A stretch of DNA of 49,917 nucleotides from a virus (Duplodnaviria; Heunggongvirae; Uroviricota; Caudoviricetes): the IMG/VR virus record IMGVR_UViG_2718218131_000006; one strand, written 5' to 3'. Made by a program: the position numbers and the translations under genes. Positions 26,342-45,756 of the stretch are shown one piece after another. The first letter of the stretch is position 1. Every line of letters begins with the position of its first letter. The notes under the pieces are model-generated. The model ran no database searches, had not been told where the DNA came from, and saw nothing but the letters and a program-made list of their open reading frames with translations.

Positions 26342-26923
26342 ACTGTGATGGACTGTGCCGGACGGTCGACGGGCCCATAACGCCTGCTCCAGAGCATCCA
26401 GCACGAATGTCGTTTCCATAGACGATGAGACCCGCCACCCCACGATGTATCCGGCAAACACATCAATGATGAACGCCACATAGACGCCCCCCTGCCATGT
26501 GCTGACGTAAGTAAAATCAGCCACCCACAACTGGTCAGGACGTTCTGCCACAAACTGACGGTTTACGCGGTCGCCTGCGGCAACGGCTTTCCGGCTGACG
26601 GTAGTGCGGACCTTTTTACCCCGGAGAACACCGGCAAGTCCCATAACCGCCATGAGGCGCGCCACTGTACATCTGGCTACCCTGATTCCTTCCCGTAACA
26701 ACTGACGCCAGACTTTACGCACACCGTATACCTGATGATTCCCATCGTATACGCGCAGTATCTCTTTCTTCAGCCAGTCATCGCGCTGCGCACGGGCACT
26801 GCGTTTATCAGGATGATGTCGCTGTTGCTGACAGTGGTAATACGTTGACGGGGCAATATGTAGTTCACTGCATACCGGTCCGACCCCGTACAGCTTACGC
26901 AGCTTATCCAGCAGTGGCATCAC
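26342..26923 (-). pseudogene. IS629 transposase orfB, N-terminal fragment (interrupted)
   Basis: ...DQLWVADFTYVSTWQGGVYVAFIIDVFAGYIVGW...HHSDKG, then runs into IS21 end sequence. Confidence 0.8.
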
Positions 26924-27246
26924 TTTTTCCAGAGGCGGTCGAACTCCGCCTTTGCAAAATAAGCGGAAGCCTGGCGAAGGATATCGTTACTGCGGCGCAG
27001 TTCACGATTTTCACGTTCCAGCTCTTTCAGACGCTGACGTTCAGCGGTGGTGAGCCCGCCATCACCGCCTCCGGTATCCCGCTCATGCTGGCGTACCCAG
27101 ACACGCAGAGTCTCCGGTGTACAGCCAATCTTTGGGGCAATGGAACAAATTGCCGCCCACTGTGAGTCATATTCGCCCTGACTTTCCAGAACCATACGAA
27201 TCGCCCTCTGACGGACTTCGGGGGAAAAACGAGTATTTTTAGTCAT
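26920..27246 (-). CDS. IS629 OrfA (helix-turn-helix, leucine-zipper transposase subunit)
   Basis: [57 protein letters not shown] matches my memory of IS629 OrfA. Confidence 0.85.
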
Positions 27247-43013: not shown

Positions 43014-43424
43014 ATGAGTAAAATAAACCATCCAATATTTGCTGAGAGAGTTCGGCAAGCAATGAGCGAACATGGCTGGTCGTTAGCCGGTCTGGCTAAA
43101 AAGGTTATGCTGTCCCATACCGCTGTGCGTAAGTGGGCAACAGGAGAAACCATTGCCAGCGGAGAAAGATTAAAAAGACTTGCCGCGGTAACAGGAAAAC
43201 CAGAACATTGGTTTTTTATGCCGCTAAATGAACATTCAAAGGAAGAAGATGCACCACCACTAATCCAGCTTGACGACAAAGAAAAGGCGCTATTGTCCCT
43301 TTTTAATCAGTTGCCAGAAACGGAAAAGCTGAGACTAATCATGCACACAAAAAGCATTCTTCATGAAATGGATCTTCTAAAAAACGATGTATACGACATA
43401 ATCAATGATATTCAAAAACAATAA
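43014..43424 (+). CDS. Prophage repressor (DicA/cI-like, XRE helix-turn-helix)
   Basis: N-terminal helix-turn-helix AERVRQAMSEHGWSLAGLAKKVMLSHTAVRKW; KALLSLFNQLPETEK resembles DicA. Confidence 0.75.
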   Translation: MSKINHPIFAERVRQAMSEHGWSLAGLAKKVMLSHTAVRKWATGETIASGERLKRLAAVTGKPEHWFFMPLNEHSKEEDAPPLIQLDDKEKALLSLFNQLPETEKLRLIMHTKSILHEMDLLKNDVYDIINDIQKQ

Positions 43425-43460: not shown

Positions 43461-43496
43461 ATCCTCACAAATAAAACTTTATGTTCCATTGCCTAT

Positions 43497-43525
43497 TGAC
43501 CAATAAAACCAATAGTTTTACCATT
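43497..43525 (+). promoter_or_regulatory. Putative early-left promoter with an operator-like palindrome in the spacer
   Basis: TTGACC, 17-nt spacer, TACCAT; spacer contains aaaaccaatagtttt, a third copy of the operator-like motif. Confidence 0.45.
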
Positions 43526-43602: not shown

Positions 43603-43758
43603 ATGGATACTATCGATCTTGGCAACAACGAATCTCTGGTGTACGGCGTGTTTCCAAACCAGGACGGCACCTTCACCGCAATGACGTATACCAAAAGCAA
43701 AACGTTTAAAACCGAAAATGGTGCCCGTCGCTGGCTGGAAAGAAACTCAGGTGAGTGA
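43603..43758 (+). CDS. Small protein, YdfA-like by position and length (51 aa)
   Basis: Not in the ORF track because under 60 aa; GAGGT ribosome-binding site; MDTIDLGNNESLVYGVF... Confidence 0.5.
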   Translation: MDTIDLGNNESLVYGVFPNQDGTFTAMTYTKSKTFKTENGARRWLERNSGE

Positions 43759-43759
43759 T

Positions 43760-43888
43760 ATGGATTTTGACACAATCATGGAAAAGGCTTACGAAGAATA
43801 CTTCGAAGGCCTTGCCGAAGGCGAAGAAGCTCACAGCTTCAACGAATTTAAACAGGCGCTTTCCAGTTCGGCAAAATCTAACGGCTGA
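43760..43888 (+). CDS. Small acidic protein, YdfB-like by position and length (42 aa)
   Basis: ATG 2 nt after the previous stop with GGTGAG ribosome-binding site; MDFDTIMEKAYEEYFEGLAEGEE...; preferred over the overlapping basic 69-aa track ORF. Confidence 0.45.
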   Translation: MDFDTIMEKAYEEYFEGLAEGEEAHSFNEFKQALSSSAKSNG

Positions 43889-43917
43889 TAAGCGAAACAG
43901 CACCGCGAGGAATCAGT

Positions 43918-44124
43918 ATGCAGAAACGAGAACCCGTCATCATCGCGCCAGACTATACCGATGATGAACTTTATGAGTGGATGCGCGGGAAGATACGCGC
44001 CATTAATGACCTGAAGCAGGCCACTGATCACAAAGAGCGCCTCTCTGAAACACTGGCGTCAGTGACGCAGGATATTACCGCTCTGGCAAAAAGCGCGGCA
44101 TTAAACGTTTCGCGAGTGATCTAA
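43918..44124 (+). CDS. Small protein, YdfC-like by position
   Basis: 68-aa ORF with GAGGAA ribosome-binding site. Confidence 0.55.
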   Translation: MQKREPVIIAPDYTDDELYEWMRGKIRAINDLKQATDHKERLSETLASVTQDITALAKSAALNVSRVI

Positions 44125-44148
44125 AACCACCGACTGATGAGGTTGACT

Positions 44149-44787
44149 ATGGAATTTAAAGATTTACCAATTTCAATACAGGAAATGGCCGCTGATGTGA
44201 TTCGCTCGCAACTGGCGCGGAACCCAATGATATTAGTAGATAAACTGTTCATCAGAAATTTATCAAATCATGTCCGTAATTCTTTTACCGGACTGTATTC
44301 ATATTCGTTCACAAACAATCATTGTGTAGAAAATAAAGCAAAACTCATTGCAGAAACGACAGCGCAAAACATCAACACGAAACCAACGGAAGAAGAAATT
44401 GATCAGTTTGCTCATGATGCTGGTTTAAAAAACAAGGAAGAAAAATCGCCATATGCGGGAAACATGTTTGTTTATGACAACCTTATCCGAATTCGTGGCG
44501 AAATTCCGACTGAATACCTGGCAAAAATTCACCAGGCATTACTTAAAAATCTGGAAACGGAAGTATTTGATGGCAACACCAACGGCTCCTTCGTGGTGTC
44601 AGCTCTCGCAAAAGAGTGGGATAAAGATAATCGCTGGAATGTTGCTACATGGTTATTCAGCAACAAAGCTTCCGCCCTGGAAGCTGCGGCGTGTATTTGC
44701 GACCTGCTAAGGACAGACCGCAAATACAACCTGGATGTGTATAGCTATATTTATGCTGAACACTATCCGCTATGGATTAACTGGTAA
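44149..44787 (+). CDS. Hypothetical AT-rich 212-aa protein (moron of unknown function)
   Basis: GAGG ribosome-binding site; lower GC than its surroundings; no recognisable motifs. Confidence 0.6.
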   Translation: MEFKDLPISIQEMAADVIRSQLARNPMILVDKLFIRNLSNHVRNSFTGLYSYSFTNNHCVENKAKLIAETTAQNINTKPTEEEIDQFAHDAGLKNKEEKSPYAGNMFVYDNLIRIRGEIPTEYLAKIHQALLKNLETEVFDGNTNGSFVVSALAKEWDKDNRWNVATWLFSNKASALEAAACICDLLRTDRKYNLDVYSYIYAEHYPLWINW

Positions 44788-44997
44788 TTACAAAGCTGTA
44801 CCAGCAGGGCCACGACGACCAGCACCACGATTGTAATCAATGATGCCATTATAAAGCGCATTATTTAATTTATCGTCGAATGCCGATTCTGTGAGTCCTA
44901 GCTCTGAATGAGTTTTTAATAACCCTGATTGCCTGAGTTGATTAACCAGGCATTCAATCTGTTTTTCAATAAGCGGATGTATTGGCTTGTTTGGCAT
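44788..44997 (-). CDS. Hypothetical 69-aa protein, convergent with and abutting the 212-aa gene
   Basis: GGAGGA ribosome-binding site; MPNKPIHPLIEKQIECLVNQLRQSGLL...; stop codons of the two genes form TAATTA. Confidence 0.45.
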   Translation of the reverse strand: MPNKPIHPLIEKQIECLVNQLRQSGLLKTHSELGLTESAFDDKLNNALYNGIIDYNRGAGRRGPAGTAL

Positions 44998-45324
44998 TTT
45001 ATCCTCCATTGAGGTTCTGGGTTAAAAATGGAGACCAACACGCTGCCACGTGTGGTCGTGCGCCGGACACGGATAAGAATCCGGTACTGACAGTTTACTG
45101 AAAGGATATTTCCCTGAAAAGTCAGGGCATAACGCGAAAGCGCACGGCGGAGGTGTCTTTTCCTTAGAAGGCTTGTCGTTAGATTTCTTCGACCGTGCGC
45201 TTCCGGTTGTGGCAATCCGCGAAATGGCGCGGCGGTACGTATGGCGGGGTTATTCCTTCCCCCTGTTGAGGACACCGGGTTGTCAGGTTGACCATACGCC
45301 TGAGTGACAACCCCGCTGCAACAA

Positions 45325-45383
45325 CCCATGTTGATTACCTTTTGGCGGCATCAGTTTCATTGCTGGCTGATGTCCGCCCTTTT
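45325..45383 (+). ncRNA. dicF: DicF-like small RNA with intrinsic terminator
   Basis: TTTTGGCGGCATCAGTTTCATTGCTGGCTGATGTCCGCCCTTTTT resembles my memory of K-12 DicF; located just upstream of the dicB homologue as in Qin; 5' end approximate. Confidence 0.6.
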
Positions 45384-45387
45384 TAAA

Positions 45388-45550
45388 GTGAATTTTGTGA
45401 TGCGGTGAATGCGGCTCAGCGCACGCGGAACAGTTAAAAAGGCCAGTTGACTTCCGTATTGGTTCTTATGGGTGGGTTCTCTGTATCCGGCGTTAATTGT
45501 TAACTGGTTAACGTCACCTGGAGGCACCAGGCACCGCATCACAAAATTCA
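45388..45550 (+). promoter_or_regulatory. Perfect 19-bp inverted repeat enclosing about 125 nt, between the DicF terminator and the dicB ribosome-binding site
   Basis: TGAATTTTGTGATGCGGTG at 45388-45406 and its exact reverse complement at 45532-45550. Confidence 0.6.
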
Positions 45551-45567
45551 TTGTTGAGGACGCGATA

Positions 45568-45756
45568 ATGGAAACGTTATTACCAAACGTTAATACGTCT
45601 GAAGGTTGTTTTGAAATTGGTGTCAGTATCAGTAACCCTGTATTTACTGAAGATGCCATTAATAAGAGAAAACACGAACGGGAGCTATTAAATCAAATAT
45701 GCATTGTTTCAATGCTGGCCCGTTTACGTCTGATGCAAAAAGGATACTGGCAATGA
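45568..45756 (+). CDS. dicB: Cell-division inhibitor DicB
   Basis: 62 aa METLLPNVNTSEGCFEIGVSISNPVFTEDAINKRK...SMLARLRLM matches my memory of K-12 DicB; GAGGA ribosome-binding site. Confidence 0.8.
   Translation: METLLPNVNTSEGCFEIGVSISNPVFTEDAINKRKHERELLNQICIVSMLARLRLMQKGYWQ

What the first reader, a model, noticed from the sequence alone, without database searches (positions are those of the whole stretch)
45010..45324. About 315 bp of GC-rich sequence with no convincing ORF, upstream of the DicF-like sRNA
The only long ORF here (44916..45329, minus) is arginine-rich with no ribosome-binding site and looks like a GC artefact. The stretch contains local hairpins (for example ccgga...tccgg) and sits between two divergently arranged genes. 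It could be a structured leader of the dicF precursor, another sRNA, or a regulatory region for the 69-aa gene.
Basis: seen in the sequence. Interest (0 to 1): 0.45.

Follow-up and report, generated by a model that had tools for sequence, protein, structure and literature searches.

The report
Structured leader of a DicF-like RNA
The flagged stretch is not a gene for a protein but the folded, transcribed leader of the prophage small RNA DicF. It holds an RNase III processing stem and a strongly conserved cloverleaf-like RNA domain, also found in phage P1, whose own job is still unknown.

Summary
The interval is real, non-coding, and read on the + strand. Window 45057-45322 is about 90% identical to the E. 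coli K-12 ydfC-dicF spacer. That spacer is experimentally known to be part of the dicBF transcript and to form the 5' part of a 190-nt DicF species: RNase III makes its 5' end, and RNase E then releases 53-nt DicF.

What appears to be undescribed:
- **A long processing stem.** About 20 bp (45127-45148 with 45192-45212), kept across lineages by compensatory changes.
- **A compact core.** About 115 nt (45206-45322) with four helices and a pseudoknot: 96% of cells paired and 13-16 pairs changed on both sides. G-U pairs are valid only on the + strand.

The core matches no Rfam family. It recurs at the head of repressor-controlled early operons in lambdoid prophages of several Enterobacterales genera and in P1-type phage-plasmids. 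An intrinsic terminator follows in every copy whose downstream sequence I inspected.

No reading frame is conserved. Only 45010-45056 belongs to the neighbouring 69-aa gene.

Best reading: a biogenesis and scaffold domain of a roughly 185-nt early phage RNA. An autonomous role, such as put-like antitermination or binding a host factor, is not excluded.

The parts
45010..45056 (-). 5' flank of the 69-aa gene (phrog_4274). It is not homologous to K-12. It contains the SD GGAGG upstream of the ATG at 44997, and a hairpin at 45033-45057 (GACCAACACG...CGUGUGGUC). Read on the minus strand, the hairpin is followed by UCCAUUUUU.
   Evidence: Sequence. K-12 homology starts only at 45057. PHROG hit for the gene, E 2.8e-41. 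The only promoter-like match here (45025->44996, minus strand) overlaps the start codon, and such sites are fewer than chance in this region.
45057..45126 (+). Lineage-specific part of the leader, shared with K-12 Qin. It holds hairpin H1 at 45063-45084 (CCGGA...UCCGG) and hairpin H2 at 45087-45125 (CUGAC...GUCAG).
   Evidence: About 90% identity to the K-12 ydfC-dicF spacer. Other lineages with the same downstream core carry unrelated sequence here. I found no covariation test for H1 or H2.
45127..45212 (+). Long irregular stem of about 20 bp. The 5' arm is 45127-45148 (GCAUAACGCGAAAGCGCACGGC) and the 3' arm is 45192-45212 (ACCGUGCGCUUCCGGUUGUGG), around a variable 43-nt insert. This is the predicted RNase III site that creates the 5' end of the long RNA at about 45200.
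   Evidence: MFE -41.6 kcal/mol. Arm duplexes of -21 to -36 kcal/mol occur in every lambdoid lineage examined, with compensatory arm changes and inserts of 32-129 nt. In K-12 the 190-nt species needs RNase III (PMC10448788). Its calculated 5' end, NC_000913 1649245, falls inside the 3' arm, 6 nt before helix P1.
45206..45322 (+). Conserved core fold.
- P1: 45206-45213 with 45315-45322.
- P2 hairpin: 45217-45221 with 45228-45232.
- P3': 45233-45236 with 45274-45277.
- P3 hairpin: 45245-45265, with a CU-rich loop.
- P4: 45278-45285 with 45305-45312, with a 19-nt near-invariant loop.
- Pseudoknot: GUAUGG 45239-45244 with CCAUAC 45292-45297.
   Evidence: RNAalifold on a MAFFT alignment finds P1 (partly), P2, P3', P3 and P4. 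Pair counts are 95.7-96.4% paired, with 13-16 pairs changed on both sides. No shuffle of 500 reached the observed values, except 3 of 500 on one measure (further pair types). Slid controls give 31-62% paired. The covariance model scores 150 bits here and 90-154 bits in 70 other loci. No Rfam family matches at E<=10.
45323..45342 (+). Single-stranded, U-rich linker (AACCCAUGUUGAUUACCUUU). It corresponds to the seed end of the DicF-like sRNA and is the expected RNase E entry site.
   Evidence: The Rfam DicF alignment starts at 45329. The linker is the most variable segment between lineages. RNase E dependence of the 53-nt DicF 5' end is shown for K-12 only.
45343..45384 (+). Intrinsic terminator of the DicF-like sRNA (GGCGGCAUCAG...CUGAUGUCCGCC + UUUUU).
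   Evidence: The terminator scan finds it at 45347-45374 as the only strong + strand terminator between the dicBp-like promoter (43496-43524) and int. It is part of the RF00039 match.

Best explanation
The interval is the non-coding, + strand leader of a DicF-like small RNA, inside the repressor-controlled early-left (dicBF-type) operon of a Qin-like prophage.

Proposed sequence of events:
1. Transcription from the dicA-side promoter runs through ydfABC, the 216-aa gene and the antisense 69-aa gene, and into this leader.
2. A stem of about 20 bp (45127-45148 with 45192-45212) forms first. It sequesters GUUGUGG, the 5' strand of helix P1.
3. RNase III cuts the stem, giving a 5' end near 45200.
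4. GUUGUGG is then free to pair with GCUGCAAC (45315-45322). This closes a compact four-helix, pseudoknotted domain of about 115 nt.
5. The intrinsic terminator at 45343-45384 sets the 3' end. The result is a long RNA of about 185 nt.
6. RNase E can then cut the U-rich linker (45323-45342) to release the short DicF-like sRNA.

I propose that the folded domain is a nuclease-resistant 5' body that stabilises the long form and positions the RNase E cut.

**Shown in K-12 by others:** co-transcription, RNase III dependence of the 190-nt species, and RNase E dependence of the 53-nt species.

**Shown here:** homology, the fold and its covariation, the strand, the absence of a coding frame, and the distribution.

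**Inferred:** that this copy is processed the same way, the stem-to-P1 refolding, and the scaffold function.
For: **Homology.** Window 45057-45322 is about 90% identical to the K-12 spacer. 4417 of 5426 complete E. coli genomes carry a match, none annotated in the rows listed.

**K-12 experiments (PMC10448788).** The transcript starts at dicBp. The 190-nt DicF needs RNase III and the 53-nt form needs RNase E. The paper's Fig. S1 sequence covers the whole core.

**5' end.** The calculated 5' end of the 190-nt RNA lies 6 nt before P1, inside the 3' arm of the long stem.

**Fold.** RNAalifold supports it, and pair counts on both a MAFFT alignment and a model-fitted alignment far exceed the shuffle and slide controls.

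**Strand.** P1 holds many G-U pairs (UG:36 and GU:44 of 69), which would be A-C mismatches on the other strand.

**Long stem.** It is kept by compensatory changes in three sequence types.

**Dual partner.** GUUGUGG is nearly invariant where it has two partners, in the lambdoid lineages. It differs in P1 phage, which has no upstream stem.

**Transcription path.** A promoter-like site lies at 43496-43524, and no + strand terminator occurs before DicF's own.

**Not coding.** The spacing between two conserved anchors varies over all residues mod 3 (32/27/10). No frame is open in most homologues.
Against: - Nothing about expression or processing was measured for this strain.
- A mere processing scaffold would not need near-invariant loops and junctions from Erwinia to E. 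coli to phage P1.
- In P1 the core is followed almost directly by a terminator, with hardly any 'seed' to release. That argues the core has a function of its own.
- Single-sequence folding energy is not significant for the 186-nt RNA (z -1.5).
- The pseudoknot has only one covarying pair. Part of its invariance was imposed by the search patterns I used.
- Some copies (L014, L055, Shigella L133) lack the P1 5' strand.
Confidence: 0.55

Rival explanations
1. The core is a cis-acting RNA that modifies the transcribing RNA polymerase, as HK022 put RNA does. The polymerase can then read through the DicF terminator and reach dicB, recE, xis and int. DicF-like sRNAs would be the terminated by-product.
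For: - In every context examined the core lies between a repressor-controlled early promoter and the first intrinsic terminator. This holds for Qin-type loci, cdtI, mEp460, e14/CPS-53-type, Citrobacter, Erwinia and P1 Pban.
- The identity of the downstream genes is irrelevant.
- No N-like gene is annotated in these phages.
- The DicF terminator is the only strong + strand terminator before int in this window.
- Near-invariant unpaired nucleotides suggest binding to a conserved machine.
- Read-through transcripts exist in K-12.
Against: - The covariance model finds nothing in the HK022 genome (best 9.6 bits).
- There is no second copy in the rightward operon of this window.
- An antiterminator does not need a terminator immediately next to it in every lineage.
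- The boxA-like GUGCUCUCUUC upstream turned out to be the 3' arm of the long stem.
- No functional data exist.
Confidence: 0.15
2. The core, with its terminator, is an autonomous trans-acting structured RNA made at prophage induction. It would bind or titrate a conserved host or phage factor. DicF seeds would be lineage-specific add-ons in the linker.
For: - In P1 and in a second phage-plasmid type the unit is core plus terminator with almost no linker. In P1 it starts about 40 nt after the C1-controlled promoter P1ban.
- The predicted RNA sizes are similar: about 180 nt in P1, 190 nt in K-12 and 185 nt here.
- The core is much better conserved than the DicF part.
- The 190-nt species accumulates in stationary phase in K-12.
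Against: - No partner is known.
- The variable P3 loop has no consistent complementary target within 1.2-1.5 kb of the element.
- The RNA resembles no tRNA, tmRNA, 6S, C4 or any other Rfam family.
Confidence: 0.2
3. The interval is the promoter and 5' regulatory region of the minus-strand 69-aa gene.
For: It lies directly upstream of that gene. A strong SD (GGAGG) and a hairpin at 45033-45057 are present.
Against: - The conserved block 45057-45322 occurs in thousands of genomes without this gene. Only about 596 genomes have the gene next to it, against about 3507 with the leader.
- G-U pairs fit only the + strand.
- The single promoter-like match overlaps the start codon, and such matches are fewer than chance here.
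Confidence: 0.05
4. The interval encodes a protein: the 137-aa minus-strand ORF or the 44-aa plus-strand ORF.
For: - The ORFs exist.
- Some phage records annotate hypothetical proteins across this sequence, for example cdtI orf40.
- There is a weak PHROG hit.
Against: - Indels in the P3 hairpin shift the frame among close homologues.
- Plus-strand frames are stop-free in 0-3 of 69 sequences. The best minus-strand frame is stop-free in 38 of 69.
- There are no Pfam hits.
- The substitution pattern is paired-helix covariation, not codon-like.
Confidence: 0.02

Closest known systems
Leader of the 190-nt long DicF species in the E. coli K-12 Qin dicBF operon (ydfC-dicF spacer)
   Same: - Homologous sequence, about 90% over 45057-45322.
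- Same position, upstream of a DicF-type terminator and dicB.
- Same predicted RNase III stem and core fold.
[quoted passage not shown]
   Different: - Here a 216-aa/69-aa gene pair is inserted between ydfC and the leader.
- The first 47 nt differ.
- The attached sRNA has a different 5' seed and scores below Rfam's DicF threshold.
- I found no paper among those searched that describes the fold of the leader.
'dicF-like region' of phage P1 (AF234172 68791-68892) and of P1/P7-type phage-plasmids
   Same: It shares P2, P3', P3, P4, the pseudoknot and the near-invariant loops, and is followed by an intrinsic terminator. Compensatory changes relative to Qin support the shared helices.
   Different: - It is transcribed from its own C1-controlled promoter (P1ban, operator Op72), about 40 nt upstream, so no RNase III stem is needed.
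- The closing helix uses a different sequence.
- There is almost no linker or seed.
- It heads an operon of tRNA genes and ban rather than dicB.
HK022 put RNA (cis-acting processive antiterminator)
   Same: The position is the same: in an early operon of an N-less temperate phage, between the promoter and the first terminator.
   Different: - No sequence or structure similarity was detected.
- By my recollection, put is about 70 nt with two hairpins and is present in both early operons.
- This element is about 115 nt with four helices and a pseudoknot, in a single copy.
P1/P7 C4 and P4 CI immunity RNAs (Rfam RF01695)
   Same: They are cloverleaf-like RNAs processed out of the leader of a phage early operon.
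   Different: - No match to the C4 model at E<=10.
- No conserved complementary target sites nearby.
- The 5' end is made by RNase III in K-12, not RNase P.

Membership tests
DicF precursor leader (Qin dicBF operon) | Sequence homology to the K-12 ydfC-dicF spacer | tested here: met
   About 90% identity over query positions 48-313, i.e. window 45057-45322. The covariance model scores 150 bits in both loci.
DicF precursor leader (Qin dicBF operon) | Lies between a ydfC-like gene and a DicF-type terminator and dicB, on the operon strand | tested here: met
   ydfA/B/C at 43603-44124, DicF-like at 45329-45384, dicB at 45569-45756, all on the + strand. A 216-aa/69-aa insertion is extra.
DicF precursor leader (Qin dicBF operon) | RNase III-dependent 5' end about 137 nt upstream of DicF, and an RNase E-dependent DicF 5' end | not testable with these tools
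   Only the substrate is predicted: a stem of about 20 bp at 45127-45212. Cleavage is shown for K-12 only.
DicF sRNA (Rfam RF00039) | Match to the family model at or above its gathering score | tested here: not met
   There is no match inside 45010-45324. The adjacent 45329-45379 scores 34.1 bits against a gathering score of 48 (E 1.8e-5). The flagged interval is the leader, not DicF itself.
HK022 put RNA | Sequence or structure similarity to putL/putR | tested here: not met
   The unfiltered model search of the whole HK022 genome gives a best score of 9.6 bits, E 0.59.
HK022 put RNA | One copy in each early operon | tested here: not met
   There is a single match in the 49.9-kb window.
HK022 put RNA | Located between the early promoter and the first terminator | tested here: met
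HK022 put RNA | Cis antitermination through binding of RNA polymerase | not testable with these tools
   This needs transcription assays.
C4/CI antisense immunity RNA (RF01695) | Match to the family model | tested here: not met
   No match at E<=10 in window 44700-45650 or in the P1-type locus.
C4/CI antisense immunity RNA (RF01695) | Loop sequences complementary to target sites in the same operon | tested here: not met
   The best duplexes of the P3 loop fall at scattered positions, with energies typical of chance. Only the P3 loop was tested.
tRNA / tmRNA | Detected by ARAGORN or by Rfam tRNA/tmRNA models | tested here: not met
   ARAGORN finds no genes in 44800-45700. There are no Rfam hits.
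Terminator-controlling riboswitch | Known aptamer class, or a conserved alternative pairing between aptamer and terminator | tested here: not met
   No Rfam aptamer matches. By inspection, a possible GGCGG/CCGCC alternative pairing in Qin-type copies has no counterpart in P1, whose terminator is GCCCAUC...GGUGGGC. This is a weak test.

The most novel reading that the evidence does not exclude
The ~115-nt pseudoknotted core is a previously undescribed phage RNA family with a function of its own. It sits at the head of repressor-controlled early operons in lambdoid prophages and P1-type phage-plasmids. It would act on a conserved host machine. One option is RNA-mediated read-through of the terminator that follows it, which would make it a second kind of put-like antiterminator. 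Another is a decoy for a host factor. On this reading, DicF-type seeds are lineage-specific passengers.
Probability: 0.3. Interest if true: 0.7.

Novelty: new member of a known kind. Interest (0 to 1): 0.4.

Why it matters
DicF is one of the oldest known bacterial small RNAs, yet its long form and leader have been treated as plain spacer. The leader contains an RNA domain that is better conserved than DicF itself. That domain is kept by compensatory evolution and is shared with phage P1. It is present in about 80% of complete E. coli genomes, often in several copies, and is unannotated in every record listed.

If the domain only shapes processing, it explains how DicF-type sRNAs are made from phage operons. 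It also warns annotators against the spurious ORFs called across it. If it acts on its own, it would bear on how N-less temperate phages get past the first terminator of their early operons, or on a new phage-host RNA interaction.

Tried and rejected
- **Rfam.** At gathering and at E<=10, only DicF and a sub-threshold STnc100 match beside the interval. Nothing matches inside it.
- **tRNA or tmRNA.** ARAGORN finds none.
- **put similarity and a second copy.** None found.
- **boxA-like motif.** GUGCUCUCUUC precedes the core in non-Qin lineages. I considered a nut-like site, then dropped it, because the motif is the 3' arm of the conserved long stem.
- **C4-like antisense mechanism.** Duplex search of each P3 loop against 1.2-1.5 kb of flanks gave no consistent target.
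- **Long-range alternative to P3.** Pairing GGCGGGGUU with AACCCCGC appears in the single-sequence MFE. It is not supported, because P3 variants covary with the local 3' strand instead.
- **Riboswitch-type terminator/antiterminator pairing.** Not conserved between P1 and Qin types.
- **Coding potential.** Rejected.
- **Neighbouring 69-aa and 216-aa proteins.** No Pfam or PADLOC hits, only PHROG families of unknown function.
- **Old papers.** Faubladier & Bouche 1994 and Lobocka 2004 could not be read.
- **Literature search.** I found no description of the leader's fold.

Full report
**What is at the site**

The window around the finding is a Qin-like prophage early-left operon, all on the + strand:

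| Feature | Coordinates |
|---|---|
| dicA-like repressor | 43014-43424 |
| ydfA, ydfB, ydfC | 43603-44124 |
| 216-aa ORF | 44137-44787 |
| 69-aa gene (convergent, minus strand) | 44788-44997 |
| flagged interval | 45010-45324 |
| DicF-like RNA | 45329-45384 |
| dicB | 45569-45756 |
| ydfD | downstream of dicB |
| RecE-like exonuclease | 46034-48499 |
| xis | 48552-48830 |
| int | 48799 onward |

RefSeq annotates nothing between the 69-aa gene and dicB in the identical strain PK8241.

**Check of the observation**

- The 137-aa minus-strand ORF and the ccgga/tccgg hairpin are present.
- GC enrichment is modest: 54.3% against 51.8% for the window, and 59.5% in the core.
- No reading frame is conserved. 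In 69 distinct homologues the distance between two invariant anchors takes all values mod 3 (32/27/10). Plus-strand frames are stop-free in 0-3 sequences, and the best minus-strand frame in 38.
- Neither ORF has a Pfam hit.

**Homology and what is already known**

- Window 45057-45322 is about 90% identical to the 340-nt ydfC-dicF spacer of E. coli K-12.
- 4417 of 5426 complete E. coli genomes have a match, with a median of 2 and up to 9 places. No feature is annotated under the match in the rows listed.
- For K-12, Ragunathan et al. 2023 (PMC10448788) confirm the earlier work of Faubladier et al. 1990. DicF is cut out of a transcript that starts at dicBp. RNase III makes the 5' end of a 190-nt species. 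RNase E makes the 53-nt form. Both a terminated (1,146-nt) and a read-through transcript exist.
- The paper's Fig. S1 prints the sequence of the 190-nt RNA, which spans the region discussed here.
- Counting 190 nt back from the annotated DicF 3' end gives NC_000913 position 1649245, which corresponds to window position 45200.

**The conserved core**

I collected homologues from IMG/VR, GTDB genomes, phage and plasmid records. They show that the best conserved part is not DicF but a segment of about 115 nt upstream of it.

RNAalifold on a plain MAFFT alignment of 23 diverse copies predicts these helices:

| Element | Window coordinates |
|---|---|
| P1, closing helix | 45206-45213 with 45315-45322 |
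| P2 hairpin | 45217-45221 with 45228-45232 |
| P3' | 45233-45236 with 45274-45277 |
| P3 hairpin | 45245-45265 |
| P4 | 45278-45285 with 45305-45312 |

I added a pseudoknot between GUAUGG (45239-45244) and CCAUAC (45292-45297) in the P4 loop.

Covariation counts:

| Alignment | Cells paired | Pairs changed on both sides | Slid controls, cells paired |
|---|---|---|---|
| MAFFT, 23 copies | 95.9% | 13 of 35 | 31-57% |
| Model-fitted, 70 copies | 95.7-96.4% | 15-16 of 29-35 | 31-62% |

- No shuffle of 500 reached the observed values, except 3 of 500 on one measure (further pair types).
- Clear examples are P4 GGGUUGUCA/UGACAACCC against GGGUAACCA/UGGUUACCC in Izhakiella, P3 CGGGG/CCCCG against CCAGGUG/CACCUG, and P3' U-A against C-G in P7-type copies.
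- The pseudoknot has one covarying pair (U-A 62, U-G 4, C-G 3, no mismatch). Its other positions were partly fixed by my search patterns, so that support is modest.
- P1 holds many G-U pairs (UG:36 and GU:44 of 69), which would be A-C mismatches on the other strand. The RNA is therefore the + strand, the direction of the operon.
- Single-sequence energies are not significant on their own.
- No Rfam family matches at E<=10, and ARAGORN finds nothing.

**The processing stem**

- Just upstream, 45127-45148 pairs with 45192-45212 in an irregular stem of about 20 bp.
- The same stem exists in every lambdoid lineage examined. It comes in three different arm sequences that compensate each other, and the insert ranges from 32 to 129 nt:
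  - CAUAAC.GCGAAAGCGCACGG with CCGUGCGCUUCCG.GUUGUG
  - CACAACGAUGAGAGCAC with GUGCUCUCUUCGUUGUG
  - CAUAACAGGUAAGAGCAUUCC with GGAAUGCUCUUUCCGUUGUG
- The K-12 190-nt 5' end falls inside its 3' arm, which fits an RNase III site.
- The base of this stem uses GUUGUG, which is also the 5' strand of P1. The stem and P1 are therefore mutually exclusive.
- From this I infer that cleavage frees GUUGUGG to close the core.
- This double duty would explain why GUUGUGG is nearly invariant in lambdoid copies. In phage P1, which has no upstream stem, the closing helix uses other sequences.

**Distribution and context**

The core lies on the repressor-gene strand, downstream of the repressor gene or its operator, at the start of the early operon. 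This holds in:
- Qin-type prophages and active phages (mEp460, cdtI, Stx2c phages);
- e14/CPS-53-type elements;
- Citrobacter, Erwinia, Izhakiella, Trabulsiella and Serratia symbiotica prophages;
- P1/P7 and one further phage-plasmid type.

In P1 the published annotation calls part of it a 'dicF-like region'. There it starts about 40 nt after the C1-controlled promoter P1ban and precedes tRNA genes and ban.

In every copy whose downstream sequence I inspected, an intrinsic terminator follows within about 10-60 nt. The linker between them is the most variable part, and in P1 it is almost absent. In this window, DicF's terminator is the only strong + strand terminator between the dicBp-like promoter (43496-43524) and int.

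**Interpretation**

I am confident of the following:
- The interval is non-coding.
- It belongs to the + strand early transcript.
- It carries a processing stem and a real, conserved fold that forms the 5' body of a long DicF-type RNA of about 185 nt.

My preferred function is biogenesis and stabilisation scaffold, at about 0.55 for the whole statement.

The near-invariant loops and the P1 copy without a seed argue that the core may do something itself. I tested several specific ideas:
- **put-like antitermination.** It fits the position. But there is no similarity to HK022 and no second copy in the window.
- **C4/CI-like antisense control.** There is no model match and no consistent target.
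- **Riboswitch.** No conserved alternative pairing was found.
- **boxA resemblance.** This is explained by the long stem.

**The 69-aa gene**

Only 45010-45056 is specific to the inserted gene pair. The conserved leader exists in thousands of genomes without it. The 69-aa and 216-aa products belong to PHROG families of unknown function, with no Pfam or PADLOC hits.

**Novelty**

As a locus, this is another copy of a known thing: the DicF precursor leader. I found no description of its fold, its long stem or its modular spread in the papers I could search or in Rfam. The two key older papers could not be read, so priority is uncertain.

Noticed in passing
window 45329-45384: The DicF-like sRNA scores below Rfam's threshold (34.1 against 48 bits). 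Its 5' seed (UGUUGAUUACCUUUU) differs from K-12 DicF (UUUCUGGUGACGUUU), so it may have other targets. Several other seed and terminator variants sit behind the same core in other loci.
   Followed up: partly
window 45377-45600: The spacer between DicF and dicB gives a sub-threshold match to the Rfam family STnc100 (34 against 47 bits, E 1.6e-5, full model length). It may be a second conserved structured segment of this operon.
   Followed up: no
window 44137-45009: A convergent gene pair is inserted between ydfC and the DicF leader relative to K-12: a 216-aa ORF (phrog_2151) on the + strand and a 69-aa ORF (phrog_4274) on the - strand. Function is unknown and there are no Pfam or PADLOC hits. 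RefSeq marks the 216-aa ORF as an N-terminally truncated pseudogene, although a full ORF is present here.
   Followed up: partly
L006 (phage P1 AF234172) about 1690-1740; also L149 3190-3232: About 50 nt after the element's terminator, P1-type plasmids and a second phage-plasmid type carry a start-less frame, GCA AAC GAU GAU CUG AUG AUG GUA GCG GCC UAA (ANDDLMMVAA*). It resembles a tmRNA tag template, and one synonymous GAU>GAC variant was seen. The Rfam tmRNA_permuted model gives only 24 bits, and ARAGORN calls no tmRNA. The roughly 470-nt non-coding stretch runs into a tRNA gene array.
   Followed up: partly
L131, L140, L142, L143, L048 (Serratia, Trabulsiella, Erwinia, Izhakiella and related viral contigs), just after the core: In these lineages the terminator hairpin is long. 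Its loop contains a conserved Shine-Dalgarno-like AGGAG followed by AUGUUCUACCG, so a short ORF may start inside the terminator. A conserved segment (..ACAGA.AAGAGCAUCACCGG.CGACGGG..) follows the U-tract.
   Followed up: no
L014, L055, L133 (Shigella flexneri): Some copies lack the 3' arm of the long stem and the P1 5' strand. The cause appears to be a deletion between the two CGCGAAA repeats, one in the 5' arm and one in P2. The Shigella copy also has a degraded terminator, so these look like decaying copies.
   Followed up: partly
window 26849-26965 (minus strand): A full-length ALIL pseudoknot (RF01497, 116 bits), the frameshift element of IS3-family transposases. An insertion sequence therefore lies elsewhere in the window.
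   Followed up: no
L145 (phage cdtI orf40), L146 and several phage records: Annotators have called hypothetical proteins across this RNA element on the minus strand. The weak PHROG hit of the window's 137-aa ORF (phrog_3651, 22 residues) probably reflects such spurious ORFs.
   Followed up: partly
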